Below are positions 1 through 52,378 of a stretch of 64,000 bases of DNA, piece by piece (the first letter of the stretch is position 1; every line of letters begins with the position of its first letter). Source of the stretch: Raja brachyura (Eukaryota); NCBI GenBank assembly GCA_963514005.1, contig OY740813.1, positions 14,756,001-14,820,000 of the forward strand, in the 5' to 3' direction. Made by a program: the position numbers and the translations under genes. A model generated the notes under the pieces. It had not been told where the DNA came from. It did not search any database and saw only the letters and a program-made list of their open reading frames with translations.

Positions 1-587
1 AAAAGTTATACGATGCTGCGTAGCAATCAGCATGAGCTTATGGAACAAGAACAATGTGATATTGGAAGATCAGAGTGCACTTTAGCATCTGGAAGGATGG
101 AACAAAACTGAACAAATTGTGGCATCGGCGATCCTTCATGGGGGAAAATGCAACGTATGGAAAAGTAGACATTTCATTCTGTAACAGCTTGCATTTCAGC
201 TTGTGATTTAACAAAATGTTCTTTTATTATTCATTGAGTTTGCCAAACATGAAATCGACATCTTTAGTTTCCCTTTCTAAAGATTTAAATGAACAAATCC
301 TGGCTTGAAATAAGTTGAAAGTTTAATTAAACAGCTTATTTGAACATGTAAAAATGAGTTGTGTCGACTTAATTTCTTGCTTCTGTGATAGAACCTGGTG
401 TTGAAATCATCTGAACAGGGAAGCGGTGATCTTCATCTTGTCGATAACCCCACGCAGTTTGTTACAGAATGTAACATTTTAATTGTGAATTACTATTTTA
501 CATCTAGGAACAACTGAACTTATTAGTAAGACTCATTCCGTGAAACATTATTTCTGGTGAAATGTTCTAGATTTGTCTGTATGGGGG

Positions 588-3142: not shown

Positions 3143-4722
3143 TGATTTCTCCCAAATCTGAGATTTCCGCAGAACTATCCCGGAGCTAGTTAAGAATTGT
3201 ATATAGGGTGTAACTTAAGCGGTACCTGAGATTTTCTAGCCAAATATCAACTCACTCAGGCTGGAGTAATCCTTCTGAAGTGAAATGTTTTGCATTGTGA
3301 CTGGGCAGAGCTGCATTTCTTTCTGCCAACTTGTGACTTGAGAGACATTTTCCGCACAGCATGTAGGAAGTATTGAAGGATGCCCTAAAATATCTCTCTT
3401 TTGGCATTTGATCCCTCACTTTCTTCACTGTTAGTTAATGTAGGGAAGGGGAGTGCAGTCATATGGCATGGTGGTTGCAATCATCCCTCAGCACTCTGGA
3501 AGTAGTAGATTGCCAGGATAATTATGTTGCAGTGATGTCTGTAAGGAATTCAAGCTGTCAAAGTTCCATTCTATTCACCACTTCATACTCCAGTCATGAT
3601 TTTCAATATTCCTTTTTTGCTGCTATTCTATCATAATTTACAATTCTTGCCAAGAGGAGCCAGCCTCGCGTGCCTTGTATGTCACTGCAAGTCTACATCA
3701 TGTGACTGAATAAGTGAGCACAAAATAGTTGCTGCTGCCTTAATCACTGTGATTGCCCTGGATAACTCGAATGTCAAATATCAACTTCTTGGCATGTCGT
3801 GGCCCTAATTATGGGGACTTGGAGAGACGTTTCTGAGGCCATGACTCGCTTTTCACTTATTTGATGTTAATTAAAGGTTTTGTGAGTGCACTGGAATCTT
3901 GCACAACACTGAAGCCGCTCTTAATTCTCCCTCCTGTTCAACCTTTCGTCTTAACATATTATCTCTTCCTCCTTCAAATCAACTGCACAATTCCATTTCT
4001 GTCCACAGTCTCTGCTCACTAACTGTAATTCGCTCTCTGATCTTGGCATGCATTGGGGAGAAAACCTTGTATTACTGAATTACAGGTGAAGCACTTTTAC
4101 ATGTAATAAGCTACCATGATATTTTTAATACAACGTAATACCAACATTTTTGCCTTCATGTTACAGGGAAAATTGATAATTATATTATTTAATAAGTTCT
4201 ATTTTGACTGACTTATTCAGGACATTGAGCCTGCAGCACATAATACTTATCAGAGTTATAAGATAAAGTGTAAAAATATGGAAATAACAGTTGTATAGCA
4301 GTTGCGTTTTAAACATTTTTTAATCAGTACTGTGCCCATCATTCAGTCTGGACAGCAATAGACCTCCTTGAAGAACTCTTAGGAGGGGTGGGGAGGTTCC
4401 TACTGACCTTCATTAAGAACAATATCGCCCATCAATGGCTGAGTTCGGTGCATCCTGGTTTTAAAACTACATTTCACAAAATATTTTTAACATTTGAAGT
4501 AGTGTTGTATCAGAAGTCTGAACATCAGCCAATGTGGAACAGGCTTTCATCCAATCCACTTTTTGTCATTGTTTTAGTACAGTCATAGGCAATTGGGTGG
4601 ATTGGCAGAGTTATGACGGTAATTGATGGTGAGGCTGAGTTGGGGTTGCAATTTCTTTTTATTACCAGCAGGTAGCAGCATTGAGCTATTAGCGATTCCA
4701 GGCAGGTGGGGATTCAAATGAA

Positions 4723-4854
4723 TGTTTAAGAAGGAACTGCAGATGCTGGAAAATCAAAGGTAGACAAAAAAGCTGGAGAAACTCAGTGGGTGAGGCAGCA
4801 TCTATGGAGCGAAGGAAATAGGTGACGTTTCGGGTCTCGACCCTTCTTCAGACC
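4723..4854 (-). mobile_element. PLE terminal repeat with intact hammerhead-like core
   Basis: The minus strand reads GGT CTGAAGA A GGGTC GA GACCC GAAA CGTC ACC, then TATTTCCTTCGCTCCATAGATGCTGCC...CCAGCATCTGCAGTTCCTTCTTAAAC. Confidence 0.75.
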
Positions 4855-16494: not shown

Positions 16495-17105
16495 CTACCA
16501 TCGACTCCACAGTCAAAAAGGCACATCAGAGGATGTACATCCTGCGGCAGCTGAGGAAGCACAATCTGCCACAGGCAATGATGGTTCAAATCTAGGTCTG
16601 TTCTCACCTTCTCCATCATGGTCTGGTTTGGCTCAGCCACCAAGCACGACACCTGGAGGCTGCAGTGAATCGTCCAATCAGCAGAGAAGGTTATTGGCTG
16701 CAACCATCTCTCCATTGATGAACTGTACACTGCAAGGGCCAGGAAGCGAGCGGGCAAGATCATCTCTGACCCCTCTCACCCTGGCCACAAACTCTTTGAA
16801 TCACTTCCCTCTGGAAGGCGAGTCCGGACTGTCAAAGCTTCCACAGCCAGACATAAAAACAGTTTTTATCCATGAGTAGTTGCTCTACTCAACAACCATA
16901 AATCTGTAGCCTCCCTTTGATCTGGCATTTTGTTGGTTCACATGCTTGATCAATGGTGTTTTATCATTAATGTTTTATTATTATTAATGTTTAGTGTTTT
17001 CTGAGTAATTCGTAACTCTCACGTTATGTCATGTTGCTTTTGGCGGAGCACCAAAGCAAATTCCTTGTATGTGAATACTTGGCCAATAAACCTACTTACT
17101 TACTT
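16495..17105 (+). mobile_element. Rex1/Babar-type LINE 3' fragment with (ACTT)n tail, inserted in a PLE tail
   Basis: Near-identical to 59829-60439. Encodes a disrupted ...IISDPSHPGHKLFESLPSGRR... and ends AATAAA+(ACTT)n. Confidence 0.85.
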
Positions 17106-21953: not shown

Positions 21954-22129
21954 CTACAATTCACTGTGACGGACTGGCGGCTCCAGCTTGTTCGACAGCG
22001 CACATAGGACCTTGTCAAACTTTTTGTATCGCTCGGCTTGGCTGCCGCCTGCTCCTCGACTGCCCCACAGCAACCGCATTTGGAACTCTGTCTTGAAGAC
22101 TTCAAGAACTTGCTCGTTCTCCTGAAAAC
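21954..22129 (-). CDS. sh2d3c: SH2D3C last coding exon (FQENEQVLEVFKTEFQMRLLWGSRGA...LSNKLEPPVRHSEL*)
   Basis: Acceptor TCATCCCGCAG|GT, TAG at 21956-21954. Contains TEFQMRLLWGS, conserved in the NSP family. Confidence 0.95.
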
Positions 22130-22399
22130 CTGCGGGATGAAAAATAGAAGAGTGTGACGCACATGTGGTGAGCTCGCTATGAAAGCAAAGCTAGGATGGT
22201 GTGAACATCTCCTTTCAAATGGTGTTCCAGATCATTCAACTTGCTCTAATTTAAAACAAAAGACCTTTATTATCCATGAAAGTTAGGTTGGGGCATTTTA
22301 ATCGGGTGATGATTAAGGAATAGTGATGTACAAGTCATGATGGTGTATGACGTGGTTGGGGAAGCAATGGGGGTAATATTCCTATGCATCTTTGAATAG

Positions 22400-22728
22400 T
22401 TAGAAACACAGAAAATAGGTGCAGGAGGAGGCCATTCGGCCCTTCGATCCAGCACCGCCATTCATTGTGATCATGGCTGATCGTCCCCAGTCAATAACCC
22501 GTGCCTGCCTTCTCCCCATAATCCTTTGATTCCACCAGGCCCCAGAGCTCTATCTAACTCTCTCTTAAATCCATCCAGTGATTTGGCCTCCACTGCCCTC
22601 TGTGGCAGGGAATTCCACAATTTCACAACCCTCTGGGTAAAAAAGTAGTTTCTCACCTCAGTCCTATATGGCCTCCCCTTTATTCTAAGACTGTGGCCCC
22701 TGGTTCTGGACTCGCCCAACATTGGGAG
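22400..22728 (-). mobile_element. CR1-type LINE 3' end
   Basis: ORF MLGESRTRGHSLRIKGRP...FFTQRVVKLWNSLPQ.AVEA.SL..FK.ELD (CR1 ORF2 C-terminus) plus the GATCAGCCATGATC...GGGCCGAATGGCC tail. Confidence 0.9.
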
Positions 22729-22789
22729 TTCTTTCTAGGTAGGTGAAGTTGTGGGTTTGAGAGGTGCTGTGTGAGTAGCGGAAATGAGA

Positions 22790-23450
22790 AACATCGATTT
22801 ATTCTGCTGAGGTTGTGCACCAGGAGTGCAGAGAACACATGTTTAAACTGGTGAATCTGGTGCCAAACAACTGGATTGAATGGTATTGTGCTCTTGAGTA
22901 TTGTGAGAGCAAAACTCATCTGGGCAAGAGAAGCATGTCCCATCATACCCTTGACTGTACTCTGTACACGGTTTAAGGCTTTGTGGCGCAAGCGAGTCAC
23001 TCCCCACAGGATATCCTGCTCTTGTAGCCGTCTTATTTATGTGGTAGGGGCAGATCAGTTTCTGGTCAATGGTGACCCGGGGGACATTGAGGTAGAGGAT
23101 GCAGCATTGGTAAAGTAATTGAATATCAAGAGTACATGGTTAGACTGTCTCTCGCTAGACATGGTCAGGGCCTGGCACTTTGTAGCAACAATGCTATTTG
23201 CCACTTAACAGCCTGTATTTGTTGCCTGAGGGTATGTACGGTTCAATTTGATGAGGAGTTCCAAATGGACTTGAACTTTGTGCAGGCATCAGTGATCATC
23301 CCCACACTCCATCCCCTTTGAGTTTATAGTGGTGGAAGGTCATTGATGAAGCAGCTGACGTTGGTTGAGTCTAGGACAATACCCTGAGGAAATATTGTAG
23401 TGATGTCCTGAGGCTGGGATGATTGACATCTAACAACCACACACAACTCC
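22790..23450 (-). mobile_element. old CR1/L2-clade reverse transcriptase fragment
   Basis: The minus strand translates approximately to VVVRCQSSQPQDITTIFPQGIVLDSTNVSCFINDLP (RT PQGS.LGP..F..FINDL motif). Confidence 0.55.
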
Positions 23451-24427
23451 CTGAACTGAAGTGAGTGCATTCTCTGTGCTCTGAGTTTACAACTAGCTAA
23501 AGCCTTACCACCAATATTAAAACCTATCAGCTTGGACCATGTCCAAACCCGAGTCTCCGAGGGTCAGGGTACCTGCAATGTATTGACAGCTGCTACACAA
23601 TAATAATGGAATATGTGTGCATATTGTCTTACTTTTAAGTCCCCCTCCAGCTTCCACTATTTCCCCAAACCAGACAAACAAATTGCTCTTGGCTTCATGC
23701 CAATTGTGTTTTGTAACCATCTAAAAGGCTTGTGCAGGATAACCTTGTGATGGGGGTTTCCTTCCTTTCCCATGCCAAAATAACCACCATCTGTTCAGTC
23801 CAGCCCCTCCTCCCATACTGGACCAAGGCACAAACGCAGTCAGAATGTGTGTAGCTACATCCTCCCCAGCCATTATCTGCTTTCCACTTTCCCTTCAAAG
23901 CAAATGTAGCTTTGAACTAAACAGGACGCACAAGAAACTGCGGATGCTGGAACCTTGGGAAGAACACAATAGTGCTGGAGGGACTCAGTGGGTCAGGCAG
24001 CATCTGCGGAGGGAATGGACAAATGATGTTTTGGGTTGGGACGGATCGGTTTGGGTCTCTAGCCAAGGCCACATGAGCTGACCTCAACCAGGTGGCAGTG
24101 GTCACACTCTGTTTTATGCAGCAGCCTGAGTCGAAGCAGTAAGGAAGAAAAGTCCAACACTGGTTCCTGACAGTGCCCAATGCTGGGAAACAATAGGAGA
24201 TGCGTAGGTCGGGCCAGTACAGTGTTTAAACAGCTAGTCGCTGTGGAAACTCGTGTAAAGATTGGATTTGGTACCTGGTTGGGCATTTGGCTTGAACCAA
24301 TGAAACAAAACCCTGCAGATTTTACAGCCTTTAGAACAAAGAGGGGATAACTGGGAAGAGAGAGATTATTGATGGATGCTAAATATAACTCTTTGTTTCA
24401 GCAAGAGAGAGTATTCTAAGTATTTAC

Positions 24428-24634
24428 CTTGTAGTTTCAGTTCAGCGTTGGTTTTATATAGTCCCCCGTGATGTGCAATTGTTCTTGCAGCCTCCAGATG
24501 TGACATAACCACCTCGACGCCACTGTCACTGATCTCCCAGGGCTCGATGTTCTCAGTCGTTGCCAAATTACGCTCAAGCAAAGTGATGAGAGGAACCACA
24601 TGAGGAAAGGTGGTGTTGGTCAATGGAGATGCTT
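24428..24634 (-). CDS. sh2d3c: SH2D3C exon 9 (ASPLTNTTFPHVVPLITLLE...HLEAARTIAHHGGLYKTNAELKLQ)
   Basis: Overlaps ORF 24366..24623. Acceptor CCTTTCAG|AA, donor CAAG|GTAAAT, 207 nt. Confidence 0.95.
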
Positions 24635-25333
24635 CTGAAAGGCAGATAGTTATTGTTTAAATCAAACTCAGGAAGCTAAATAAATTAGAATGAGATGTGC
24701 AGATTGAGACGTTCCATCAATCCTGCAGACATCAATCCACAGACTACCTGCCTAATTACAATTTCTATTTCATTCATTTAATCAGTTGCTAAATATTCTG
24801 ATCCATAAAAGAAGATTTAAAAAATCACTAAATATTTGTCAATTTCTTTTCCCCCTGGACCTTTGACTCAGTAATTGACTTTGTAGCAACAGCTCCCCTG
24901 TCTCAAACCTATTTCTCAGGGTCACTAGCATTGCACAGGGGAGCATTTCATCCTGTTGGTCTGTTCCTCTATCACCAAGAACTTTTTTTAAATTCAGTTG
25001 AGGGTGGAGCTTGTTTACAAAGGCATTTATTTCATAAACGCTCAAATAATGGTATTATCTTCATATTAAGAGATATTCTTGATATTGGATCTATATCCAT
25101 TCAAATCTATAATCCCTCGCATCTCATTTGTGCATCATCAGATGGTGCACTAAACCACCGTTGGACCTTAATCCCACAATTAGCCAGGGGTCAAATTGCC
25201 ACCATGGATAGGCATTGAAGGTGTGTTGCCTTAACTAAAATCATTTTCTCTCCTTCCCTTTATTAGACTGTTTTCAGTATATGAAAACAGTTCAATAACA
25301 AACAGGTCTGATCGATGAAATTCTGGGTCTTAC

Positions 25334-25445
25334 CTCTTCCTTCATTCATGTTCCTCATGAAGGGTTTCAACTTCTTTTCATAAAGAATCGCTCCCTCAGT
25401 GTGTCGCTGTCTAAGAGCCATCCATGTCTGCTCGAGCCTCGAAAT
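25334..25445 (-). CDS. sh2d3c: SH2D3C exon 8 (ISRLEQTWMALRQRHTEGAILYEKKLKPFMRNMNEGR)
   Basis: Acceptor TTTTATTGTAG|ATT, donor AGAG|GTAAGA, 112 nt. Confidence 0.95.
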
Positions 25446-26554
25446 CTACAATAAAAACTTGAGGTGAATAAATGTTGCAACTGGGAAGATACAGATTTAA
25501 TATGAATTGGACCAGTTCAGAGTGGGTAACCTGTCATGAAACTGCTTTATGTCTCAGAGGGGAATTTGATACTGGTTGCTTATTTAGCTTGATTGAATTC
25601 ACTTTCTGAGGTAGCAGAAGTGAAGAAATGCAGTGCAATCGATGTATGTATATCTTTTTAAGAACATATTTGATAAAGTATCACATTACAGATTTATTTA
25701 CAAAGTAGCAGCTTTAGGTATTTCAGTTGGTGACTCCTTGTGGACATTAGAGGCAAATGGCTAACAATAAAGAGGAGCGGGGAACTGCAGAAAAGTAGCA
25801 AGTGGGGGTTGATATTATGGATACAAACTGAAGCTGGATTTAAGGAGTTTAATGGCAAAGATCAGGATAATATAGTATAGTAGACAGTAATCTGGTAGTG
25901 GCACAGTTCACGAGGATAAAGACTGATCATAGGGCAGATATTTGAGTCATAAAGCTGTATAGTACAAAACAGGCCCTTCAGTCCACCTTGTCCATGCTTA
26001 CCAAGTTGGCACACTGCACTAGTCCCATATCCATCTAAAGCCTTCCTATCCATATATCTGTCTGAATGCCTTTTGAAACTCGTAATTTTTTCCATTTCTA
26101 TAGCTTCCTCTGGCAGCTCATTCTAGATGCAAACCACCCTGAGTGGAAAAAGCCCCTGCGGTCCTTTTTAAATCTCTCCCCTCTCGCCTTAAGCCTTTAC
26201 ACTCATGGTTCACTGTTTGGGGAAAAAGACTGTGAATCGCTTTTTCCCTGGGAAGAAGATATGACAAATGCTATTTAATTGGGCTTGGTGTGATGCGAGT
26301 CTCTGAGGGAGAAATGAGCAGAAATATGAACTAAATGCCATTGTTCTGAAGATGTGGTGTAGTGAAAAGCAAATGAGATTTTGTGTATTACCGAAGGTGT
26401 CAAGAAAAGTTAATGTGATAATTAACAAACGAATGAGATATTTAATAGTGTAGATCATAAAAGCAAGGGAGGCATGCTTAATCTTCACAAATCACATTTT
26501 AAGATTCAGAAGGAGTAATGTTTATAATGCTAGTCACATTACGTTAGGAAAACG

Positions 26555-26945
26555 GTCATGATCTCCTTTTCACCGACTATCAACAAGGGTGCACTGCAAG
26601 GCTACCTGCTTAGCCCACTGCTCTTCTCTCTACACCCACGACTATGTAGCTAAACACCGCTCCAATGCCATCTATAAATTTGCCAATGCACCCGCTGCTG
26701 TTGGCTGAATCACCGGTGGTGATGAGTCAGAATACAGGAGACAGAACAGGTGGTTGAGGGGTGTCACAACAACAACCTCTCGCTCAACATCAACAAAATC
26801 CAAGAACTAATCATTGACTTCAGAATGGGATAGTCGGAAGACCACACACCGGTGGGTCAAATGGTGGAGAGAGTTGGCAGCTTCATATTCAAATGCCTCT
26901 GCTTTAGAGACTTAACGAGATGTCACCAAGTACTCTAACATACCT
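26555..26945 (+). mobile_element. degenerate Rex1-type reverse transcriptase fragment
   Basis: Translates approximately to GALQGYLLSPLLFSL/THDYVAKHRSNAIYKFAN..., matching the RT motifs GxPQG..LSPLLF and KFADD. WC..NNL.LN..K follows. Confidence 0.7.
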
Positions 26946-26949
26946 ATGT

Positions 26950-27165
26950 AGAAAAAACACAAAGTGCTGGAATAAACAATGGCTCAGACTACATCCCTGG
27001 AGATCATGTATCGGGTCTGAACCCTTCTTCAGATTGGGGAGTCTGAAGAAAGGCCCCAACATGAAATGTCACCAATCCATGTTCCCCAGAGATGCTGCCT
27101 GACCCACTGAGTTACTCCAGCACTTTGTGTCTTTTTTTTGTAAACCAGTATCTGCAGTTCTTTGT
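26950..27165. mobile_element. divergent pair of PLE terminal repeats
   Basis: CCCTTCTTCAGA ... GTCTGAAGAAAGG back to back, with outer arms CACAAAGTGCTGGA / TCCAGCACTTTGTG. Confidence 0.7.
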
Positions 27166-28421
27166 AAATCAGTGACCAGAGGTTGTGGATTGAAAATGAT
27201 TGACAATTGAGGTGAAATGTCTTTGTTCAGAGGGTTATTATGATCTTCAGCGCCACCAGAGGATTATGGAATCGCATTCCACAGTAACTTTAAACTGGCA
27301 ATTGGATAAGCATATGAAAAGAATAGGCATAGCATTCCCCTTCTCTTTGGAGCTTCAGTAAGTTTAAATGATGCGATTTTGTAGATTTTACAGAATAATG
27401 GAACAAGCCGCGAAATGGAATCATCAGAGCACCAGGAAAATCCTCAGAATCTTGCTCATTAGGAGTGTAGTTTCTCAGCCAGTTGTCATATTGTAAAATG
27501 ATGAATCATGACGAGCAATACCATGGGAGGGTGAGTGGTGATAAGATCCACGGGATACAAGGAACCCACCACCAGAACCAAACACCTTCTTCCAGCTCAA
27601 ACTATTCAGTCAATGTCCACCACCAATCAAATTCTGACCACAATGGATAAGGAGAAATAGTAGAGTTTGAATTCACACGCGCTAGTTCCCCGAGTCAACA
27701 ACTGCTGCAAAGTCTGGTAATGTAACCAAATAAAAACTGATTCCAAGCAAGAATAAAATTAGACGAAGCTGAGAATGATATTCCGAGAACAAGTCCCAGC
27801 TCGATAATCAAAAATTCACAAAAAGACATTTGCTGGAGAAACCTCACTCATATTTCCAGCTAATTGAGTTTGGATCAATAAAATATCATCGGTGATGGAT
27901 TAATATATTTAATGGGACATCAACTGTACTAAGCGAGAGCGCACTGCTGATATTCATACCCTGTGGACATTTTTAATGCAATGATGCTAAGTATGAACAA
28001 TACAATTAATTATTTAACATGGATTCTTGGTCATTTTGAATGTGACTTAAACCTCCTTCAAACACAAAAAAACCCACTGGAACTGGATGCTATTACGATG
28101 AACGATGGAACAAATGCCACATATCCTGGAGGGTACCAGATTTGCACTGCCTGCTACCCTCAACAATCCCATCTTTTGAGTATTTAACCATTTCCCTTTG
28201 TGAGGAAGCAGACTTTTTCCACAGTGTGGCAGAGGAAGTCAGACTGGGGGGCGTTTAACAGGCCATGCTGCCTCACCTGGCTGAGGGCAACAGAATAGTC
28301 AGGCCGTTGGCTGGTTGGTCCAGGAGCACATATCTCACTCTACCCTTGGCCCAATAGTGGAATAATAATAAAAGAAGGATAAGAAATGCAGTTTTCAGAT
28401 CTCACCGATTCCAGCACCTAC

Positions 28422-28593
28422 CTGAGGCATTTCCAAAGCTTTCATCACAGCGGCAAAGCCAAACATATTCCCCATATTGCTCTTCAGTTCAGCAGCCAAC
28501 TGTATAGTTTTATGCAGGAGGGAAGCTCGCTCCTCTGTGCTGCTTGTGCAGCCCAGAATGTCCACTGCCATCATGATTGACATGGTATTAAAT
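28422..28593 (-). CDS. sh2d3c: SH2D3C exon 7 (FNTMSIMMAVDILGC...ALEMPQ)
   Basis: Overlaps ORF 28395..28583. Acceptor TTCCATAG|A, donor CAG|GTAGGT, 172 nt. Confidence 0.95.
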
Positions 28594-29004
28594 CTATGGA
28601 AAAATGTAAAGAAGACCTAGAGTTAATATAGAAAATGCAGGGGATACTCAGTGGGTCAGATAAAGCAAACTGGCATATCATGACTCTTTGTCAGAACTTT
28701 TAATTGGAGAGAATAACAGAACATTTGATCCAGGGTTTCAACCCAAAATTGATTCAACATTGACCATTCCTTTCCCCCTCAGATGCTGCTTGACCTATTG
28801 AGTTACTCCAGCAGATTGTTTGTTGCTCAATTCTAGCATCTGCCATCACTTGCGTCTTCCAGACCCTGTGTCCCACCGTACTCAACCCCGCTCTAATTAG
28901 TTCAGTAGATAACATTGGCCTGGGGAACTCTCTAAGAATACTCAGCTACATGTCCTGCAGCGATAGATGCTTGTCAAAATTCCCACCTGCATTTGTGGAC
29001 AATT

Positions 29005-29430
29005 AAAGTCATACAGCATGAAACCAGTCCCTTAGCCCAACTTGTCCATGGCAATCAGTATGTCCCATCTACATTGGCCCCATTGCCTGCATTATCCTAT
29101 ATACCTCTAAACCTTTTCCTAATCATGTACCTGTCCAAAATATTTTAAATGTGGTTATAATACCTGGCTCAACTACTTCCTCAGGCAGCTTGTTCCAAAT
29201 ACCTACCTCCCTCTGATTGAAAAAGTTTCTCCTCTGGTTCCTATTAAATCCTTCCCCTCTCACCGTAAACCTATATTGTCTTGTTCTTGATTGACCTACT
29301 CTGGGTAAAGGACTATGTGCATTCACTTTACCTGTTCCCCTCATGATTTTATAAACCTGTATAAGATCACCCTTCAATCTCATGCACTCCAAGGAATAAA
29401 ATCCTATCCTGCCCGACATCTCCCTAGAGC
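29005..29430 (-). mobile_element. CR1-type LINE 3' fragment (second subfamily)
   Basis: ORF 29123..29434 (RLKGDLIQVYKIMRG...FFNQREVGIWNKLPEEVV). Related fragments lie at ~1218-1335, 13420-13740, 25945-26240, 32830-33210, 42490-43100, 51160-51560 and 59500-59790. Confidence 0.85.
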
Positions 29431-30623
29431 TCAAGGCCTTGCAACATCCCTGTTACACATTAATTGTTCTCAGGAAGAACTATGCAGTCATATATATACT
29501 CCATAAAATATCATTCACTGTCTTCTAACCCTGATCCTGTCTTTGAGTGCCCCATAACACTCCATTCCCTCCATCCTTTCTGCTTCCAAGTCCCCATCGA
29601 CCATTCTTGTATAGATACCTTTATTGACTTACAAACTGCCCAGAGAGTTTGCAGGTTTTGCCACTGACTCTAACATGCGACTATTTGTTGCTTTAGATTA
29701 ATGTATAAAGCTGTGCACTAATTTTACCTGCCAGCAGGCTAAATATTATTTTTCAGTACCCAGTAAGATCTGTTCAGTAAGGGCATCACACTGTGCTGCT
29801 GTAAAACATTTAATAGAGTTAGCAGCCCCCAGAGCCTATAGGGTCTTCTAATTAATCATCCAAATTGCCCGCAGGTAAAATAAGATTTAACCATTGCCTT
29901 TGAAAGTGACCGGGCAGACTTTGTGGGCTGAAGGGCCTGCTGTGGTGCTGTGCTGTCCTATGTTTTATGTTAACCCTTGGTCGCCTCAAAATACTGAGAC
30001 TTGGCATCTTTAATAACCACTTTCAACAGCAGACTTGAGCTTGTTTTAACTTGCTCCTGAAATGAGCAGCTCAGCTAGAGCCAAAATGGTGCTCCACATT
30101 CTGGATTGGAACTTAAAAACATACGTTGCATGGTCATGTGTGGCTCAGAGCTGGCTAAAGCAGGGGTAGGAACATCAGATCTGCCCTTTAATTTCCTGAC
30201 CTACAAATGAGTTTTGACCTAAAGATCAACATGTGCTCAACACGTGCTTGCTCTAGATTGTTGTGTGAATGTCTCTTATAGTTGAATAGCCTTGCCTGCC
30301 TTCGTTTTACGTACCTAATGTAACAAACCAAGCAGTCGGCAGCACCTTTAGGATAGGAAGAAATGATCATATTTTTCCTTCCCACAGGACAGAAGAGTAA
30401 ATGAGATGGAAATATTCTGCACAAATTCTTGCTGCAGGAGATTGGCCATCTGATTACACCGAGCAGTTTGGCTCAAATACAGTGACATTATCCCAATGTT
30501 ACAAATTGATGCCAGAACATTTATGAAACAACTCTCGAAGCCACCCTGTTTCAAAGTAACTGGGCTGCAAAGCGGCCAAGGACACAGGACGTGGTTTACA
30601 CCACGACTCTCGGCTTCTCTCAC

Positions 30624-30739
30624 CGTTCCAGTAAGTCAAGTCGAAGCTGGTGCCCGTGGGGCAGAGTAAGTAACTCCAGCCCTGAGCTCACTCCCATCTG
30701 CTTCTGCAGCTCCTTAGAAACAGCCAGTATCCTAGCAAC
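30624..30739 (-). CDS. sh2d3c: SH2D3C exon 6 (VARILAVSKELQKQMGVSSGLELLTLPHGHQLRLDLLE)
   Basis: Acceptor TCTCCACAG|GTT, donor GAACG|GTGAGA, 116 nt, phase 0/2. Confidence 0.95.
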
Positions 30740-31929
30740 CTGTGGAGACAGGATATAAAGGAGATTAATCAACTTGCACTCTCAGCAATTACATGGCCAC
30801 AAGTAACAAGCATCACATTCACCCTCTGAATATCGATCTGTTTATCAAAAGGATCTCCACACTCTGTCTTGCGTTTTGTGAAACATCAAGACTCCCAATC
30901 AACTGTTTTGGATGCACATTTGTCTCTCAGAATTGGACAAGAGAACTGTGGATATACACACTGAAAAATGTTTTCCTTAATTTTAGTTTTAAGGAACATT
31001 TTGTCGGTTTTTAGCCAGAGAACAAATTGAACTTGGTGGTTAGAACAGGCTGGTAATATGCCAACTACAGTGCTTAAGATGAATAAATCAAGCAATTCAA
31101 GTCCACTTTCATTTCTTCTTCAGGCCTCACTAGGACTCAGCCAGCTTCTGCTAAGAGGCCCCGGATAATCTGAGAGTCAGGGCATTGTCCATGATAAATA
31201 TTCAGCTGCACATTTAACAAAATTGGGACTGGTCCTGCCCTTACCCGACTGTTCCAGCAAGACAACTGATGAGTTCACAATCTTCAGTGGAAAAACAGCC
31301 CCCTCCCCAGATCCAGTACATAGGAACCGCCAGGAGTGCTTCAGCTTGCACCGTGCCTCAGATTATCCAACAGCATAGATCGTGAGACTTTCTGGAGCCT
31401 GTTTTGCTCTATACTTACACTTTTGAGTTAGAGATTGTGGGTTCAGAGGTATTTGTGCAGTATAATCTGGCCTGGCACTTTGGTGCAATACAACTGAAGA
31501 TGCAGTGTTTTGTGTGAGACCATAAATTGAAGCTCCATCTATTCTTTGAGGCTGATATACAAGACCTCGTGGGGTAAGGGTCAGAACCTCTTCTCAGCTG
31601 TCGAACCCAACATTCAATGCTCGACTAAAAACATCCACACAGATTAACCTGTCCTCTTTTCACTATTGTTTATGGGGGTTTCCTGGTGCCAATTACTGCC
31701 ATTTATTATATTACAATGATGACGTCTTTATTCTGTGAGAAGGACTTTGGCTCCTTCTGGTGATTCGAAAAGGCAACATGGGAATGAACATTTTATACCA
31801 ACAAGCTGTTTAGATGGGACTTCCTTAAATTGGACTAGTCTTGTTAATAAGGAAGGTTTACTATTTCCACAACTCAGCACAATAAAGAAATATAATTGAG
31901 ATGAATCCACTGGAACTAGATTTTCTTAC

Positions 31930-32804
31930 CATGCAGTCAACTTTTGTGATATGTTTGGCAATAGTTTTTGCATCTTCCCCAGCCAACAGCTCCTTGACTC
32001 TCTTCAGGACAGTCATCTCGAGTGGCTTGTTCTCCAAGGGAATGAGCAGAGACTGATAGCCGTTTGGGTGAAAGGAAGATTCCAGATCGATGACCGGGGT
32101 TGTGAACCAATGGCACTGCTGTCCCTCCTCCTCCTCCGCACAGCTGGGCAACGGGCTGAGATACGTCTCTGTTTCCAGGCACCCGAAGTTCGTCTCAGAC
32201 TGCAAGCTGGATATGTTCGGATTTTCCTCAACTTTCAACCGTTCCACGTAGCTCTTTGCCATCAGCTGGCTTTGCTTGAGGGCCAGTCCCAGCTGTTGCC
32301 TCTCCCAGTCGATTGGTGAAGATGGCCGCAGCTCACAGTAGTGGCTGTGCTCTGATTCTCCACAGTTCTCTGAGGCAACTCTCTGGTCTGACTGCGAGGA
32401 GCCGTGCGACTGGGCGGAATGTGTGCTGGTGCAATGAGGTCCATTCGAAGCCTCGGGAGCCTTGTCCTTGTTGGGCTCCTGACACAGACTGTTACCGATC
32501 GTTGGGCTTAGTTGCGGCTCACTGGATCGCCGGAGAACAGGCGATGATGGCGACATCCTCGCTACTCGACCCAGCTGGCTTTTGTGCTTCAAGCCTGTGG
32601 AAGATTTAACAACATTAGGTGCTGGTACCTTAGTTGGATTACTCCCTACCCCCAGCCCTTTTGCTTTTCGGATGGAACTGACATATTGCTGACAATGGGA
32701 CAGATCCAGTGCCTGAGATTGATCCAGGGCCCAAATTGAAAAGTGGGGCTGAGGTTCATAAACACATGCATCTACCAAAGTGACTCCCTGACAGTGATTC
32801 TCAC
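31930..32804 (-). CDS. sh2d3c: SH2D3C exon 5 (Pro/Ser-rich linker and start of GEF-like domain); alternative start at 32594
   Basis: Lies in ORF 31861..32778 and contains RRSSEPQL, HYCEL and LLIPLENKPLE...KVDCM. Donor ATG|GTAAGA. Two in-frame phase-1 acceptors, both TTCCACAG|G, give exon starts at 32804 and 32594, so the upstream boundary is uncertain. Confidence 0.88.
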
Positions 32805-33312
32805 CTGTGGAAGCAGAACATTAAAAAAAACAGTGTGCATCTCTGGTCACCCAGCTACAGGAAGGGTGTTATTAAGTTGTAACAGTTGTAGATGCACCAG
32901 GATATCACCTGGGCTAGCGGGATTAAGTTCTAGGGAGAGGCTGGGATGTTGTTTTTTGAAGGATTTTAAAACTAGAGGCAGCATCGGCAGAGGGTGAGTG
33001 AGGAGAGATTTAAGATGGATATTCGCGGTAACCTTTTCACTCGGACGGCAACTCGTATCTAGCATGAGCTGCAGATAGAAAGGATAGGAAAGGTTTAGAG
33101 GGCAATGGACCAAGTGCAAACAAATGGGTCGTTCCCAGGCCGCTCACTTGGTTGGCATAAACAAGGTGAACCAAATGGCCTGCTTCCATCTTGTGCTCCT
33201 CGATGACTCTAAATGCTCAAGATCTGTGTAGATCCTTGTAAAATGCTTTGTTGTGTCAGATGGCAACATTTTACTGGAAGGCCAGTTACGGTATTATTTT
33301 GACGTCACTTAC

Positions 33313-33437
33313 TTGTGCTGTACTCTGGAGAGAGAGGGATCTCATTCACTGGGCTCATTCCGTGGCGAATGTCCTTGATTTGATCCATGCTCAGAGCAAA
33401 GTTGCGGATTGGATCCTTGTGATGTGGTGACGGAATG
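33313..33437 (-). CDS. sh2d3c: SH2D3C exon 4 (IPSPHHKDPIRNFALSMDQIKD...SPEYST)
   Basis: Acceptor CCTTCCGACAG|C, donor ACAA|GTAAGT, 125 nt, phase 2/1. The ALSMDQI motif is conserved in SH2D3C. Confidence 0.92.
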
Positions 33438-34441
33438 CTGTCGGAAGGGAAGACACTGTTGAATGGTAGCTCTTGTGCATTGTCAATTAGCATTTAACTG
33501 TCAAGAGGACACACCATACTCTCTAGAAGTCGAAATCCAGGAGTACATTTGGGTGGCTAATGAAACCTGGTGCATTTTGAAAACCAGCATTCATTTATAT
33601 TGTGTCTGCTGGCCATAGATGGGGATTAGGTGTTCCTGGAGACTGCCAGGTTTCTCCTGACCATCTTTGTCTCACTTGCCTTACAAATTGAAGAGAGCAC
33701 AACTTGACAGTAAACTGCTGGGGATCCCACATAATGGCAACCTAAACTGCAGCAGAGGCTCTGAACTGAAACGTGAAGTGGGCTCACCACTCTGGGAGTC
33801 TCTTTGGACTACACCACAGCTGTAGTCCAAAGAAGTGATGCTGCCACTTTAGGATCCTCCCTACTTCCAATAATCATCTTGCCAACCCACTGCCCAATGT
33901 TGTGGAAGTTCAGAGCCAGCTGGCTTACTCCTAGCCTCCTGTGAGGAGAGCGGCAAATTGTTATCTCCATTTCCAAGGCACTGCCACCCCAAGCGCAGCC
34001 CATTTTCATAAGTACAGCCAAATGTTTTCCTGCTTCTCTGATCTTCAAGCAGAAGGTCACAGTTTGCATGTCATTTGAGTGTCTCAGACAATAAGATAAT
34101 GGGAAATGGGCACAAGGAAATCATAACTGAACCTGATCCTATATTCAACCAATGAAAGAATGACACTATTTATCACAAGTGACACGTCACGGTGAGATTT
34201 TTGTTTTGCATAAACAAGTCGCCACATATAGGGTGCTGACAAGTTCCATTTAGTCCCAATACATGTGCACATGTTCATCAGTGGTAGGAGCAGAATCAGG
34301 CCACTCGGCCCATCAAGTTTACTCTGCCATTCAATCATGGCTGATCTATCTTTCCCTCTCAACCCCATTTTCCTGCCTACCCCCCCCCCCCCCTTGCCAA
34401 TCACACCTTCGTAGATACAAAGCTGTCTGAGGATCTGAAAC

Positions 34442-34577
34442 AAGGGTGGGAGATTGCAACCTTCACGTGGTCCACCCTGTTTCGACTAATGCAATCAACT
34501 CGACGTGCACAAACAAGATCAAATAGAACAAGTTGACCTACAACTTTAGGCTGTGCACGGCATATGCAAGAAGAAGA
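34442..34577 (+). mobile_element. short non-LTR element tail ending in (GAA)n, 12-bp TSD
   Basis: TSD AGGATCTGAAAC at 34430-34441 and 34578-34589. The same tail (ATCAAATAGAACAAGTTG..CAACTTTA.GCTGTGCACG..(GAA)n) occurs at 52379-52450. Confidence 0.75.
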
Positions 34578-34647
34578 AGGATCTGAAACTAATTTTCTGC
34601 AGCACAAGGGATTTGGGTCCTTTCCCCTCAAAAACCCAAACATTTAC

Positions 34648-35096
34648 CTGTTACCACAGCTGTCACTTCGGATGATCTTGTCAGACGTCAGGCCGTCCGT
34701 CATGGTCACACTCCTCCGCTTAATGTATCCACCTTTCTGATTTGCTGAGGGGTGAGCTAGCCCATACTTCCCATTGGACAGCCCGTAGCTGGCCTCCAGG
34801 TATCGGAGGGGAAGGGTGCGGTTGATTGGACAGTAGATGATGGCACCACTCTGCTCGGAAACGGGCTTGCGGTTCCTGATGTAAAACCTGACCAGGGCGG
34901 GGATGTTGTCGAAGCTCTCCCGCTCAAACAGAAACTGGATGCGGGTGAAGGCCTCGTTCTGTTTGATCATCACCTTGTTGATTTTGAAGTGGAGAGGTTC
35001 ATTTCTCCACTGGCAGGTCAGCACGTAATCACCGACACACGTGAGGGAATCTCGAATGAGGAAATCACCATTTTTCTGCATTAGGTTCTCAGACAC
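34648..35096 (-). CDS. sh2d3c: SH2D3C exon 3 (SH2 domain core: VSENLMQKNGDFLIRDS...KRRSVTMTDGL...)
   Basis: Lies in ORF 34644..35174. Acceptor TTTTTCAG|GTG, donor AACAG|GTAAAT, 449 nt. Contains the SH2 FLIRDS motif. Confidence 0.96.
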
Positions 35097-36564
35097 CTGA
35101 AAAAATATCAGAATTTTAAAAAATGGTTGAGGAACACAGGAATCAGATTTGTCCCCACAAGCCTGTTCGTCCATACAAGTGGATAAGGGGCAATCTATGT
35201 TGCATTCCTTACACTTTTCATAATTCTGATTCTCTTTATGCAGTTACCTAAAACAAAGTGTTGAATCTTTCAGGTGACCCTGTACCTCCCCCTATCTCTC
35301 CCAATCCCAGTTTTAATAGCATTTCTGAAGGAGATTGTTCCGGATTTCTAACTTAATACTGCATTTTCAACCTCATTCGGTACTTCATAATTTCTAACGG
35401 CCAATCCCTCAGCATCAGTTCCATTGACACATACTTTGTCTCCCAGCCCTGAAGTGAGTCCCTGTCTACAGCCTGTGCAATACCTACGCGGCTTTGACCC
35501 AGAGGCTGGTGTTTAGATAAAATCACCCAATGTTCTTGCTCCTGATCATTGACCAGCAGTTCCTCTCAGCAGTAGGAGTATCATTCTGCAAAGACCCACA
35601 TTGATGGATGGGAACTGGACCATTTCCCACCCATCAATGTAGCTACTTTGCACAACGGTACACTTCCTGCGAGGCATCCCCTGGTGAAACCAATGAAAGT
35701 GACCCCCTGTGCTTGTGACGGCTGAACATGCCCTGACAGTCATGTCATTAACCCTGAGATGCTGGAAATAAAGACCATCGGTGCTTTTTTAGTATCTTCT
35801 AAAAAGTTAAAAACTAGATTTTCAAATAACGTTTAATTTATAACAGGTGGTGATTTTACCTTTCTAGTTGTTAGTTGTTAAATTAGAAGTTGATTGGGCA
35901 CAGAATCAAAACAGAGGAAGGGGACAAATTGATGGGGGAAATTTGTCGATAAATATAAGCATCATTTTTCAATTGATGTGTCTACGAAAATAAAGCACTG
36001 AAGATCACGATCCATTCTTCACCTCACTAGGCAGGTGTGAAATTTTCAGAATAAACTAATGAAAAGGTGTCAAGACACTGAGAGGCCATTGACTGACCAT
36101 TCGTCAGACTGTCAGCTGCACTCCCCCCCAACCGCTCACTGTGCTCTGATGTATATTTATGTTTTTAATGCCTATAGCAGTAAAAATGTCAAATCCTTTT
36201 CCTGCGTGGAGGAAAAGCAGAAGATATATTGCAGTTTTTCGCAGCTTTTAGGTGCTATATCTCTTGATCATTTTTATTCATAGTAATACACGAGGGAGCT
36301 ATCACCTTGACATTTCAATTTGTTTTCAAATTAGATTCATTCCTGGTAACCGAATTTCTGCTTTCTTTGTCAAGTGCTTCCACAAACACCTTGAAAACAG
36401 TGACTGAATAATGGGCTTTGGTGACTGGAACTACATTTGGAAGTTGTTACAACATAAAAGTCTGAACATAGGCTCATAACATGAGCTCTTATGTCTTTAC
36501 CAGTAACCTATTTATTGTACAACAGTGACAAAATAAATATATGCATTTCATAGAATATCATACG

Positions 36565-36862
36565 GTTCCACAGTTTCAGAATAAGGGGTAAGCCATTTAG
36601 AACGGAGATGAGGAAACACTTTTTCTCACAGAGAGTGGTGAGTCTGTGGAATTCTCTGCCTCAGAGGGCGGTGGAGGCAGGTTCTCTGGAATGTTTTCAA
36701 GAGAGAGCTAGAAAGGGTTCTTAAAAATAGCGGTCAGGGGATATGGGGAGAAGGCAGGAACGGGGTACTGATTGGGGATGATCAGCCATGATCACATTGA
36801 ATGGTGGTGCTGGCTCGAAGGGCCGAATGGCCTCCTCCTGCACCTATCATCTATTGTCTATT
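36565..36862 (+). mobile_element. CR1-type LINE 3' end
   Basis: Same family as 22400-22728 and 55720-56161. Confidence 0.88.
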
Positions 36863-37734
36863 GATTCTTAAATTAGGCCCAAAATACAGATGAACCATTG
36901 TTTATCATTGGGTAATGATATGCCAACTTCTGCGCCTCTTTGCTGAAGCTCACCGCTGAAGTTCAGCTTTGGTACCTTACATAGTGTAAAATTGTGGAAT
37001 TTTTTGGAAAGCCTGATGTGAATAGAAAATCCAGGCAGATATCCTGGAGAAGATGTGTGTTAATAACAGAATAAATTACAACATTGATTTATATCATAAA
37101 AATAGAAATAATTTAATAAAGCATTGGAAAGGGTTTTTAGTTTGGAAATGCTGACTTCAGTAGTCTAGTGCACAGGACATGTCATGTAAATACCCAGTAT
37201 TAGACAGGCAGGGTTTTACTGCCAGTGTCAATACCTGTCCCATGGGTACAGCAAACCACATTAAAAAAGCAGGCATTTCAAAGTGAGCTACAAAAGGCTT
37301 CCAAACATTTTTTTAAAAGAAAGAAACTATCAGTGATTGTTGTAATCTCATTATTTTCCTACATTCACAAAACCTGCCGGCTGTGCTATTTTTTGGAGTC
37401 ACTCTCTCAACTATCTCTGCTCCATAAGGGGGAGCCCGAGCATTCAGCAATTGGTGGTTCTCCAGGAAGCGACAATGGAAACAGGAAAGCAATGATTTTC
37501 ATCTACACCGACTTCACAACAGGCAAGAGGCACAGAACGTCGAGGGAGCTTGAGGAATTTTCTGCTAACAGCTTTTGAGAAACGTTGCGCCTAATAAATC
37601 ACACTGTGATTCCATAAATAGCAGCCTTTGTTACAATATTATCACCTGCACAATATATTACGCGCTTGTAATAGTTACAAGTAATAGTAATAGTTTGTGG
37701 GAATAATAACTTTTGCTCCAACAAAAATGTAATA

Positions 37735-37890
37735 GGTAAGTGAATAAGTAAGTAAGTTTATTGGCCAAGTATTCACATACAAGGAATTTGCCTTGGTGCT
37801 CCGCCCACAAGTAACAACATGACATACAGTGACAGTTACGAATGGCTCAGAAAACACTAAACATTAATAATAATAGAGCATTAATGATAA
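37735..37890 (-). mobile_element. 3' tail of the same Rex1-type LINE
   Basis: Reverse complement of 16960-17105 (TAAGTAAGTTTATTGGCCAAGTATTCACATACAAGG). Confidence 0.8.
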
Positions 37891-37964
37891 ATCGGATAAA
37901 TAGGGATGATATAATTGGCCCCTTTGTTAACTGAGAACCAATTTAAGGTGCCGGTTTCCATTAC

Positions 37965-38093
37965 CTCCCGTGGGATGCGCCCATGGTACCAGGCGTGACT
38001 CCGCAGGTCTGTGCTACTCAGTTTGAGCTCCTCCTCCAACTCTTTGTGCAGTTTCTCAGGACTGGAATCCAGGATATATTTATCCTTTGAAAA
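37965..38093 (-). CDS. sh2d3c: SH2D3C exon 2 (FSKDKYILDSSPEKLHKELEEELKLSSTDLRSHAWYHGRIPRE), start of SH2 domain
   Basis: Acceptor ...TTCCTCTAG|TTT, donor GAG|GTAATG, 129 nt, phase 0/0. Contains the SH2 WYHG motif. Confidence 0.96.
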
Positions 38094-38450
38094 CTAGAGG
38101 AAACAAGGGAAACTGGATGTTAGTAATAATTTGGCACTTTTTTTTGAAGTAACACCTGGGCTTGTCTGTTGTTAATTTGGATTGGAACATGTGCTTGGCT
38201 CAGCAAGTTCCACCAACTTGTCCTAAAGATTTCTGACTACTACTCCAGAGCTCCTGGGCAGTTCCCCCTGCACTGGAAATAAATGCCTAAACTTGATGGA
38301 TACTATTTACCATAAATGTTGAGAGATTCCCTAAATTGGACACCTGATGTGTCCTGGACTTGATGAGATTTTCTAAATTAAATAGACATCAAAAAGCCGT
38401 GAAAGGAAAATGCCTAAACTGGACGGACTGTACCCCTGATGTGATGTAAC

Positions 38451-43344: not shown

Positions 43345-43450
43345 CACCTGAGCAAAAATAACAAACTGTTGGAGGAACACAGTGGGTCGGGGCAACATCT
43401 GTGGAGGGAAGGGACAGACGATGTTTCGGGTTGGGACCCTTCTTCAGACT
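43345..43450 (-). mobile_element. PLE terminal repeat with hammerhead-like core (CpG-decayed)
   Basis: The minus strand reads AGTCTGAAGAAGGGTCCCAACCCGAAACATCGTC. Other degenerate copies lie at about 6270, 16350, 18318, 23925, 28735, 40210, 41865, 52805, 55310, 58765 and 61685. Confidence 0.7.
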
Positions 43451-51625: not shown

Positions 51626-52378
51626 CTCAAAATGTCAGAGTGACTCAGAGGGTCAGGCAGCATCTCTGGAGAAAATGAATAGGTGACGTTTCGGGTCAAG
51701 ACCCTTCTTCAGACACTTCAGAGACCCTTTTTGCTCCAGAGATGCTGCCTGGCCCGCCGTGTCTACTCCAGCATTTTGTGTCTATCTTCGGTGGAAACCA
51801 GCATCTGTAATTCCTTCCTACAGTACTATCCATTTGGCGTTTAAGAAGGAACTGCAGATGCTGGAAAATCTAAAATGCTGGAGAAACTCAGCGGGTGAGG
51901 CAGCATCTATGGAGCAAAGGAAATAGGCAACGTTTCGGGCCGAAACGTTGCCTATTTCCTTCGGTGTCTGAAGAAGGTTTTCGGCCTGAAACGTCGCCTA
52001 TTTCCTTCGCTCCATAGATGCTGCCTCACCCGCTGAGTTTCTCCAGCACTTTTGTCTACCTACTATCTATTTGCCTTCAGGCATGCAGGGGGTGGGGGCA
52101 AGGGCAGGTGTGGGGAAGGGTACTCTGAACTAGAAAGGTAGACAAAAAATGCTGGAGAAACTCAGCGGGTGCAGCAGCATCTATGGAGCGAAGGAAATAG
52201 GCAACGTTTCGGGCCGAAACCCTTCTTCAGACTGGACCAGACAATATCAAATAGAACAAGGTCTCGACCCGAAACGCCGCCTATCTCCTTCGCTCCTTAG
52301 ATGCTGCTGCACCTGCTGAGTTTCTCCAGCTTTTTGTGTAACCCTCGATTCTCCAGCATCTGCAGTTCCTTCTTTAAC
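51626..52378. mobile_element. cluster of three fold-back PLE terminal-repeat insertions
   Basis: At least six tail copies in alternating orientation. Hammerhead-like cores lie at ~51682-51714(-), ~51965-51999(+) and ~52199-52233(-). A perfect inverted repeat with 22-bp arms spans 51917-51961. Confidence 0.8.

What the first reader, a model, noticed from the sequence alone, without database searches (positions are those of the whole stretch)
4821..4854. Dispersed family of minimal hammerhead-ribozyme-like motifs in Penelope tails
Seen: the minus strand reads GGU-CUGAAGA-A-GGGUC(GA)GACCC-GAAA-CGUC-ACC. This gives the hammerhead core CUGANGA/GAAA/UH, a GC stem II, a 3-bp stem I (GGU/ACC) and a palindromic ACGU in place of stem III. 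Other copies change the stem II loop but keep pairing: GGGU-CUUG-ACCC (~51695), GGGU-UUCG-GCCC (~52215, UUCG loop with a U-G pair) and GGGU-CCCA-ACCC (~43430). Established: Penelope-like elements carry minimal type I hammerheads with a very short palindromic stem III, thought to cleave as dimers, and an extra nucleotide between A9 and G10.1 occurs in some natural hammerheads. Inference: with more than 20 tail copies in 64 kb, this genome may hold a very large number of potentially self-cleaving RNA motifs. The intact minus-strand copies at ~51.7 and ~52.2 kb are sense within sh2d3c intron 1 pre-mRNA. Stem I is weak in most copies, so activity is unproven.
Basis: partly seen in the sequence, partly recalled or inferred. 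Interest (0 to 1): 0.75.

Follow-up and report, generated by a model that had tools for sequence, protein, structure and literature searches.

The report
Penelope hammerhead copied 82,000 times
A short repeat from the end of a Penelope-type jumping gene in a cartilaginous fish carries an already described kind of minimal hammerhead-ribozyme motif, intact at about 82,000 places in the genome, but cutting is untested and the scattered copies are likely inert.

Summary
The motif is real. It is the minimal type I hammerhead in the terminal repeat (pLTR) of a Neptune/Nematis-type Penelope-like element (PLE). It follows the endonuclease gene end in 28 of 31 loci and also sits in the 5' repeat of 5 of 25 loci. 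One exact pattern gives 81,851 intact copies, control 0. This kind was described in 2014, and the scan found it before in three other shark genomes.

Corrections: stem II is 4 bp with a tetraloop. The family's stem I is 2 bp; 7,723 of 81,851 copies have the 3-bp form. Only 3 window copies are intact. There is no covariation; loop variants mostly match CpG decay. The intron is not intron 1 of any isoform mapped. Intact copies are not depleted in sense in introns (22 vs 17).

New lead: copy 5' ends pile up 0-4 nt before the core, not at the cleavage site, on an initiator-like TCAGT. The ribozyme may occupy the first 31 nt of the transcript (probability about 0.3).

The parts
4821..4854 (-). Minimal type I hammerhead motif: C3 at 4851, core 4851-4845, extra A 4844, stem II 4843-4832 (loop 4839-4836), GAAA 4831-4828, palindrome 4828-4825, C17 4824; predicted cut between 4824 and 4823; stem I 4854-4852 with 4823-4821
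4721..4853 (-). Solo 133-bp copy of the PLE terminal repeat, 90% identical to the 5' repeat of a full element (L210); no ORF remnant upstream; no clear target duplication; no Pfam hit in 98 ORFs around it
51685..51712 (-). Intact copy, CUUG loop, 2-bp stem I, sense in an sh2d3c intron; overlaps an inverted partner
52203..52230 (-). Intact copy of the UUCG-loop subfamily, sense in the same intron; predicted to pair with the inverted copy at 52253-52376
43420..43447 (-). Core and stem II kept, palindrome broken (G16.2 to A); sense in the same intron
51968..51995 (+). Copy with damaged stem II, arm of an inverted pair
58507..58534 (+). Decayed copy (C11.1 and C15.2 changed to U)
63672..63825 (+). 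Degraded remnant of the PLE endonuclease C-terminus
21957..38102 (-). Nine coding exons of sh2d3c inside the window; upstream exons lie beyond the window (window-equivalent 82.2, 93.2, 99.4, 122.8, 135.2 kb)

Best explanation
The motif is the minimal hammerhead of the terminal repeat of a very abundant Penelope-like retrotransposon, present at both ends of full elements; it likely cuts after GUC/GUU only as a dimer or with help from the element's own protein, and the roughly 135-bp solo copies, this one included, are likely inert by-products that decay neutrally. Shown: the anatomy, the position about 100 nt after the endonuclease end and about 160 nt before the putative ATG, the copy number, and decay at CpG sites. 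Inferred from published PLEs: two motifs pair through their ACGU palindromes to build stem III, and reverse transcription starts internally at the tail end, so short copies arise when it stops just 5' of the motif. Inferred from five tolerated subfamily changes: selection on the motif acted on the parent elements, not on the copies.
For: Same-strand motif 55-115 nt after the endonuclease end in 28 of 31 loci, one a duplicate, and after the ORF region in 15 of 20 near-full copies. A 467-aa ORF is 50% identical to a protein with RVT_1 and GIY-YIG hits. The tail runs on into the ORF 5' region in 5 of 25 loci. All features of the published consensus are present; the Acropora Neptune motif has the same build. 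In 9 subfamily consensuses 0 of 11 core positions vary; the 5 variable motif positions are two loop bases, H17 and two U-A to U-G shifts. Only 42 of 269 sampled copies are intact and the losses are mainly at CpGs, G12 included. G12A is about 2.2-2.4 times as frequent as the loop G-to-A change both in intact and in already palindrome-broken backgrounds (the loop ratio in the broken background is my count of 100 listed rows), which points to sequence context, not purging. Sense vs antisense in introns: intact 22 vs 17, all 133 vs 123. No 5' end peak at the cut site: 2 of 302. Published: a minimal monomer did not cut and dimers cut weakly; the anole PLE ribozyme cut only with protein; 1 of 9 Xenopus dimers cut.
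Against: No cleavage data for this family. No covariation, so structure rests on motif match alone. Stem I is 2 bp closed by U-A or U-G, weaker than the G-C 2-bp helices in the published list. The 34-mers fold no better than shuffles (z 0.3-0.6) and two favour other folds. The two-copy minimum-energy fold is an intermolecular stem II duplex, not the active dimer. The tail downstream is also conserved between subfamilies, so conservation is not special to the motif. The orientation test covers six gene spans; its interval (sense share 0.40-0.72) excludes only a strong depletion, and intron cleavage need not harm splicing (recalled).
Confidence: 0.75

Rival explanations
1. The motif doubles as the element's internal Pol II core promoter. 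Transcription would start at the A three bases before C3, so the ribozyme would fill the first 31 nt and cutting would remove the cap; solo copies would be strong-stop products that ran to the RNA's 5' end. This adds to the best explanation and does not exclude it.
For: 100 of 302 well-matching copies begin at -3 to 0, about 25 per position against about 2.5 further in. 143 of 269 have unique flanks that fall to background by -4/-5. Target duplications of 10+ nt end within 6 nt of C3 in 13 of 143 (three are one triplicated locus) vs 0.2% shuffled. With that A as +1: initiator 6/6, MTE 9/12, Bridge I 5/5, DPE 5/6 (consensus); joint chance 6e-5 with the hammerhead skeleton fixed (test chosen after seeing the match). 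By eye, 9 of 56 published PLE-hammerhead 5' flanks hold TCAKTY, against about 1.5-2 by rough estimate. Drosophila Penelope has an internal promoter.
Against: All 5 full elements with a complete 5' repeat extend upstream of -4; a simple start-site model expects some to begin at +1. Cap-derived G excess is marginal (11 of 25, p=0.035). Part of the MTE/DPE match comes with any hammerhead core. In D. virilis the start lies 46 bp upstream of the intron, well before the ribozyme. No RNA 5' end data.
Confidence: 0.3
2. The 5' end hot spot is mechanical: the cDNA folds back or switches template at the near-palindrome spanning -5 to A6 and joins the target by 1-4 nt of microhomology. No promoter is needed.
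For: Inverted head-to-head junctions at this place are common (38 of 269; 96 of 394 by a wider rule). Several target duplications end in the same AG or GT as the element start. Inverted 5'-truncated copies are typical of PLEs.
Against: The fold-back is only 3 bp. Other GT-containing sites in the motif show only small bumps. It does not explain why different upstream sequences all end in CAGT.
Confidence: 0.35
3. Many dispersed intact copies cut host transcripts, as monomers or in trans, and so affect expression of genes such as sh2d3c.
For: 81,851 intact cores and 7,723 with 3-bp stem I. One tandem array of 43-nt units exists. The finding's 34-mer has stem I plus stem II as its minimum-energy fold, at 19% of the ensemble.
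Against: No sense depletion; copies with 3+ bp stem I are 7 sense vs 1 antisense. Decay looks neutral. Inverted neighbours sequester many copies. Published monomers are inactive.
Confidence: 0.1
4. The conserved CAG before the motif is the 3' splice site of an intron in the repeat, as in D. virilis Penelope, and splicing defines the copy boundary.
For: Pyrimidine-rich sequence, a CTRAC-like word and CAG precede the motif in several subfamilies. In D. virilis the intron ends at helix I.
Against: The one junction tested (from the GT at the ORF end) occurs once in the genome and 0 times in 1.77 Mb held. It is not among the 15 joints shown of 95. Target duplications abut the motif, so no exon was carried along in those copies. 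The branch-like word lies only 2-5 nt from the AG. PLEs keep introns in DNA, so the genomic test is weak.
Confidence: 0.15

Closest known systems
Minimal hammerheads of metazoan PLEs (Cervera and de la Pena 2014, PMC4209133); closest in build the Acropora digitifera Neptune motif in Fig. S3
   Same: CUGANGA-N-G...C-GAAA core, extra base between A9 and G10.1, G10.1-C11.1 pair, palindromic 15.2/16.2, place in both terminal repeats, most copies solo.
   Different: No cartilaginous fish among the 56 motifs of 40 species listed. About 82,000 exact copies against about 4,000 (coelacanth) and 9,000 (Xenopus tropicalis), counted with other descriptors. Very uniform, no covariation; 56 of 57 descriptor hits in 1.26 Mb are this one family. 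Stem I is 2 bp with U-A/U-G closure.
Poseidon PAc of Anolis carolinensis (Frangieh et al. 2024, PMC11167929)
   Same: Hammerhead in the repeat near the ORF start; fixed tail ends; uncut RNA as the template for insertion.
   Different: In PAc the ORF starts inside stem II and the tail ends 111-118 nt into the ORF. Here the putative ATG lies about 160 nt after C3 and about 33 nt after the tail end. The protein here has the Cys linker of Neptune/Nematis.
Non-LTR retrozymes (bioRxiv 10.64898/2026.07.22.740005)
   Same: Short non-coding PLE-repeat-derived sequence with a type I hammerhead; reported in the one chondrichthyan sampled.
   Different: Retrozymes are defined as tandem units; these copies are dispersed monomers or inverted pairs. 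One short tandem was seen in 1.95 Mb.
Drosophila virilis Penelope (Schostak et al. 2008, PMC2377424)
   Same: Repeat holds an internal promoter; 2-bp helix I preceded by AG.
   Different: There the start site and a 75-bp intron lie upstream of the ribozyme; here no intron was shown and the candidate start is 3 nt before the core.

Membership tests
Metazoan PLE minimal hammerhead | Core CUGANGA, GAAA, UH | tested here: met
Metazoan PLE minimal hammerhead | Extra nucleotide between A9 and G10.1; G10.1-C11.1 pair | tested here: met
   against the consensus
Metazoan PLE minimal hammerhead | Palindromic 15.2/16.2 in place of stem III | tested here: met
   CG in all 9 subfamily consensuses
Metazoan PLE minimal hammerhead | Helix I closing the motif (2-6 bp in the published list) | tested here: met
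   2 bp in the family, 3 bp in this copy; at the lower limit
Metazoan PLE minimal hammerhead | Located in the terminal repeats of a PLE, sense to the ORF | tested here: met
Metazoan PLE minimal hammerhead | Compensatory changes within a genome's families (reported as supporting, not required) | tested here: not met
   12 double-changed cells vs 18.3 shuffled; two one-sided wobble shifts only
Metazoan PLE minimal hammerhead | Site-specific self-cleavage as dimer or with protein | not testable with these tools
   only contigs were available for RNA runs
Endonuclease-bearing PLE | One ORF with reverse transcriptase and C-terminal GIY-YIG endonuclease | tested here: met
   467-aa frame of L046 is 50% identical over 451 aa to P0002, which has RVT_1 and GIY-YIG hits below the curated cut-offs; no intact full ORF was found
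Endonuclease-bearing PLE | Partial-tandem terminal repeats and inverted 5'-truncated copies | tested here: met
Neptune/Nematis clades | CX2-5CxxC linker between RT and endonuclease | tested here: met
   C-X4-CxxC in the translations; criterion
Neptune clade | Placement in an RT phylogeny | not tested
   no named reference sequences were on hand (one search hits are unnamed or 'uncharacterized')
Non-LTR retrozyme | Tandem units each with a complete hammerhead | tested here: not met
   dispersed copies; one array of at least 4 partly decayed units in 1.95 Mb
Rfam hammerhead families | Match to a curated model | tested here: not met
   no hammerhead hit at E<=1 in the window; a motif without stem III may simply fall outside the models

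The most novel reading that the evidence does not exclude
In this PLE family the hammerhead and the Pol II core promoter are the same 35 bases: transcription starts three bases before the catalytic core, the ribozyme removes the capped first 31 nt, and tens of thousands of solo copies are strong-stop products that each carry a ready initiator-MTE-DPE promoter. The same layout may hold for other PLEs.
Probability: 0.25. Interest if true: 0.65.

Novelty: new member of a known kind. Interest (0 to 1): 0.32.

Why it matters
As a kind it is known since 2014, so the catch alone is ordinary. Two things add value. The count (one intact motif per 33 kb) is 9-20 times the counts given in the 2014 paper, which makes this genome a well-powered place to ask whether PLE hammerheads affect host transcripts; the first test here says not strongly. 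And the sharp 5' boundary on an initiator-like word offers a testable answer to an open question, namely what these weak ribozymes do in the PLE life cycle and why helix I is so short.

Tried and rejected
Rfam scan: no hammerhead hit; the weak microRNA hits are inverted repeat pairs. Pfam missed two of this element's frames and hit one weakly, so the PLE call rests on homology to P0002. Metagenome scan for related loci to get cross-species covariation: 1 locus from 99 candidates, not used. Sequencing runs: no RNA holder listed; four contig sets laid on L045 show presence only and nothing on ends, strand or cleavage. The depth jump just before the motif is partly an artefact of subfamily differences, so boundaries were measured on genomic copies instead. 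L045 first looked like a full element with two repeats; its upstream motif is a separate solo insertion. Purging of active copies as the cause of the G12A excess: rejected because the excess persists in palindrome-broken copies and in copies with other core lesions. Cleaved RNA as insertion template: rejected. Host exon transduction: rejected for the 13 copies with abutting duplications. No gene found around the 4.8 kb copy among 98 ORFs of 66+ aa, 98 of 125 listed; small exons would be missed. Dropped rows: a 60-kb span with unverified gene orientation was left out but is in the 17 vs 18 strict count. Literature: no report of this motif in cartilaginous fish in the listings; one search was dominated by unrelated papers and is weak; Lunse et al. 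2016 was not available, and it, Repbase/Dfam entries, supplement file 1 of the 2014 paper and the preprint's species tables could hold shark or skate examples.

Full report
Observation. The minus strand at 4854-4821 carries the full minimal hammerhead pattern. A strict pattern matches three times in the window and never in 100 shuffles. The motif heads a repeat with 44 profile hits in the window. Of 13 window copies that keep the motif region and tail, 3 are intact. Stem II is 4 bp with a tetraloop. The copy spans 4721-4853 at 90% identity to a full element's repeat, so the third stem I pair uses a base outside the aligned element.

Host and gene. The best named matches of the SH2 exon are sawfish, manta and electric ray proteins at 94-95%, so the host is a cartilaginous fish, most likely a batoid (inference). 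The genome is 2.7 Gb. sh2d3c is on the minus strand, with coding exons from 38,102 to 21,957 in the window and further exons at window-equivalent 82.2, 93.2, 99.4, 122.8 and 135.2 kb. The copies at 43.4, 51.7 and 52.2 kb are sense in a 44-kb intron, the second of the short isoform.

Link to a PLE. One of the first ten loci had the end of an endonuclease frame about 100 nt upstream of the motif. That 72-aa piece had 109,460 first-look candidates in the genome (not a copy number). In 28 of 31 loci chosen by it the motif follows on the same strand. Of 20 copies chosen by an RT piece, 15 have it after the ORF region. A 467-aa frame is 50% identical to a protein with RT and GIY-YIG hits. The linker has C-X4-CxxC, the mark of Neptune and Nematis elements. 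Walking upstream reached 5 of 25 loci where endonuclease end or UTR, motif and tail run on into the ORF region, with a putative ATG 163 nt after C3 in L210. So the motif is in both repeats, as published for PLEs. All copies seen are broken.

Numbers. The exact intact pattern has 40,911 + 40,940 = 81,851 matches, reversed control 0. 7,723 of them have the 3-bp stem I. A general descriptor over 1.26 Mb gave 57 hits, 56 of this family, control 0. The 2014 paper gives about 4,000 for coelacanth and 9,000 for Xenopus tropicalis with a different descriptor, so the comparison is rough.

Structure and selection. In 99 distinct copies, 76% of cells pair and double-sided changes are 12 against 18.3 in shuffles: no covariation. 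Across 9 subfamily consensuses none of 11 core positions varies, and the five variable motif positions are all tolerated ones. This fits selection on parent elements, but the tail is conserved too, so it is modest evidence. After insertion the motif decays at three CpGs; 42 of 269 copies are intact. Genome-wide, G12A has 14,459 matches, G16.2A 14,433, both 6,231, and the loop G-to-A change 5,389. G12A exceeds the loop change about 2.2-fold among otherwise intact copies and about 2.4-fold among palindrome-broken ones (loop ratio from my count of the 100 rows listed). That points to sequence context, not removal of active copies.

Orientation test. Six spans of Sushi-repeat genes (1.13 Mb, orientation checked) hold 22 sense and 17 antisense intact copies (95% interval of the sense share 0.40-0.72), and 133 vs 123 in all; without inverted partners 17 vs 10; with 3+ bp stem I, 7 vs 1. 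One gene gives 13 vs 3, the others lean the other way. A strong loss of sense copies is excluded; a mild one is not.

Mechanism. By analogy with published PLEs (inferred), two motifs pair their ACGU palindromes to form stem III and cut after C17. Folding gives this pairing about -3 kcal/mol beyond two stem II hairpins, but the lowest-energy two-copy fold is an inactive duplex. Published minimal monomers did not cut and dimers cut weakly; the anole ribozyme needed the element's protein, and uncut RNA was the insertion template. Consistent with that, only 2 of 302 copies begin at the cut site. I therefore read the solo copies as likely inert (about 0.75).

The 5' boundary. 100 of 302 copies begin at -3 to 0 relative to C3, about ten times the rate further in; 70 more reach -4 or beyond (a few of the 100 may be longer copies with an end mismatch). 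143 of 269 have unique flanks, with the element's bases fading over -1 to -4. Target duplications abut this point in 13 of 143. The bases there are a full initiator match, with MTE 9/12, Bridge I 5/5 and DPE 5/6 at the required spacing. By eye, 9 of 56 published flanks also hold the initiator word. Against this: 5 of 5 full elements extend further upstream, the cap-G signal is marginal, the test is post hoc, and fold-back with microhomology explains the same pile-up. I give the promoter reading 0.3 and the full novel case 0.25. I found no statement of this layout in the passages read or in the listing; that is a thin search.

Papers. PMC4209133: main text parts 1-2 of 4, supplement file 2 parts 1-2 of 3 and a term search; file 1 unreadable. 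bioRxiv 10.64898/2026.07.22.740005: parts 1-3 of 5; supplements not seen. PMC11167929: parts 1-2 of 4; supplement list only. PMC8557442, PMC2377424, PMC4581360, PMC6765202: passages. Lunse et al. 2016: not seen, known from the review's passage and reference list. Hammerhead numbering and the role of G12 are recalled.

Verdict. A real, correctly guessed, known kind of motif in a new host group, in unusually high number. The scan noted the same in three other shark genomes (unchecked AI notes). Interest 0.32, held up by the count and by the 5' boundary lead.

Noticed in passing
L136 about 150-360, minus strand (G000:C31 near 16,107,200): Tandem array of at least four 43-nt units, each one minimal hammerhead plus its CAGT lead; a natural dimer context and a retrozyme-like birth, partly decayed.
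   Followed up: no
window 4836-4839: The loop is the reverse complement of the family loop, a likely micro-inversion within the hairpin; rare (one more among 100 rows).
   Followed up: partly
upstream 12 nt of the motif in many loci: Unrelated upstream sequences of different subfamilies end in a CTRAC-like word 2-5 nt before CAGT; branch-point-like but too close to the AG; unexplained.
   Followed up: partly
Fig. S3 of PMC4209133: The initiator word TCAKTY appears in 9 of 56 published 5' flanks by eye, with its A 4-9 nt before C3.
   Followed up: partly
P0001-P0006: The fish protein is 42-50% identical to unnamed metagenome proteins and a sea-urchin protein; horizontal transfer not tested.
   Followed up: no
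window 16596-16895 and 59864-60268: A 300-bp repeat pair at 93% identity; the second overlaps a frame with an ALKBH8_N hit, likely a LINE C-terminal fragment.
   Followed up: no
window 51600-52400: Cluster of six tail copies forming two near-perfect inverted pairs and one overlapping pair; long predicted duplexes in sh2d3c pre-mRNA, candidates for A-to-I editing.
   Followed up: partly
L036 2365-3966 +: A 534-aa uninterrupted frame next to a PLE copy that resembles an SPT2-like chromatin protein (recalled, not searched).
   Followed up: no
L201 (G000:C3 near 102.08 Mb): The same tail insertion with its target duplication recurs three times at about 1.87-kb spacing, a local triplication.
   Followed up: no
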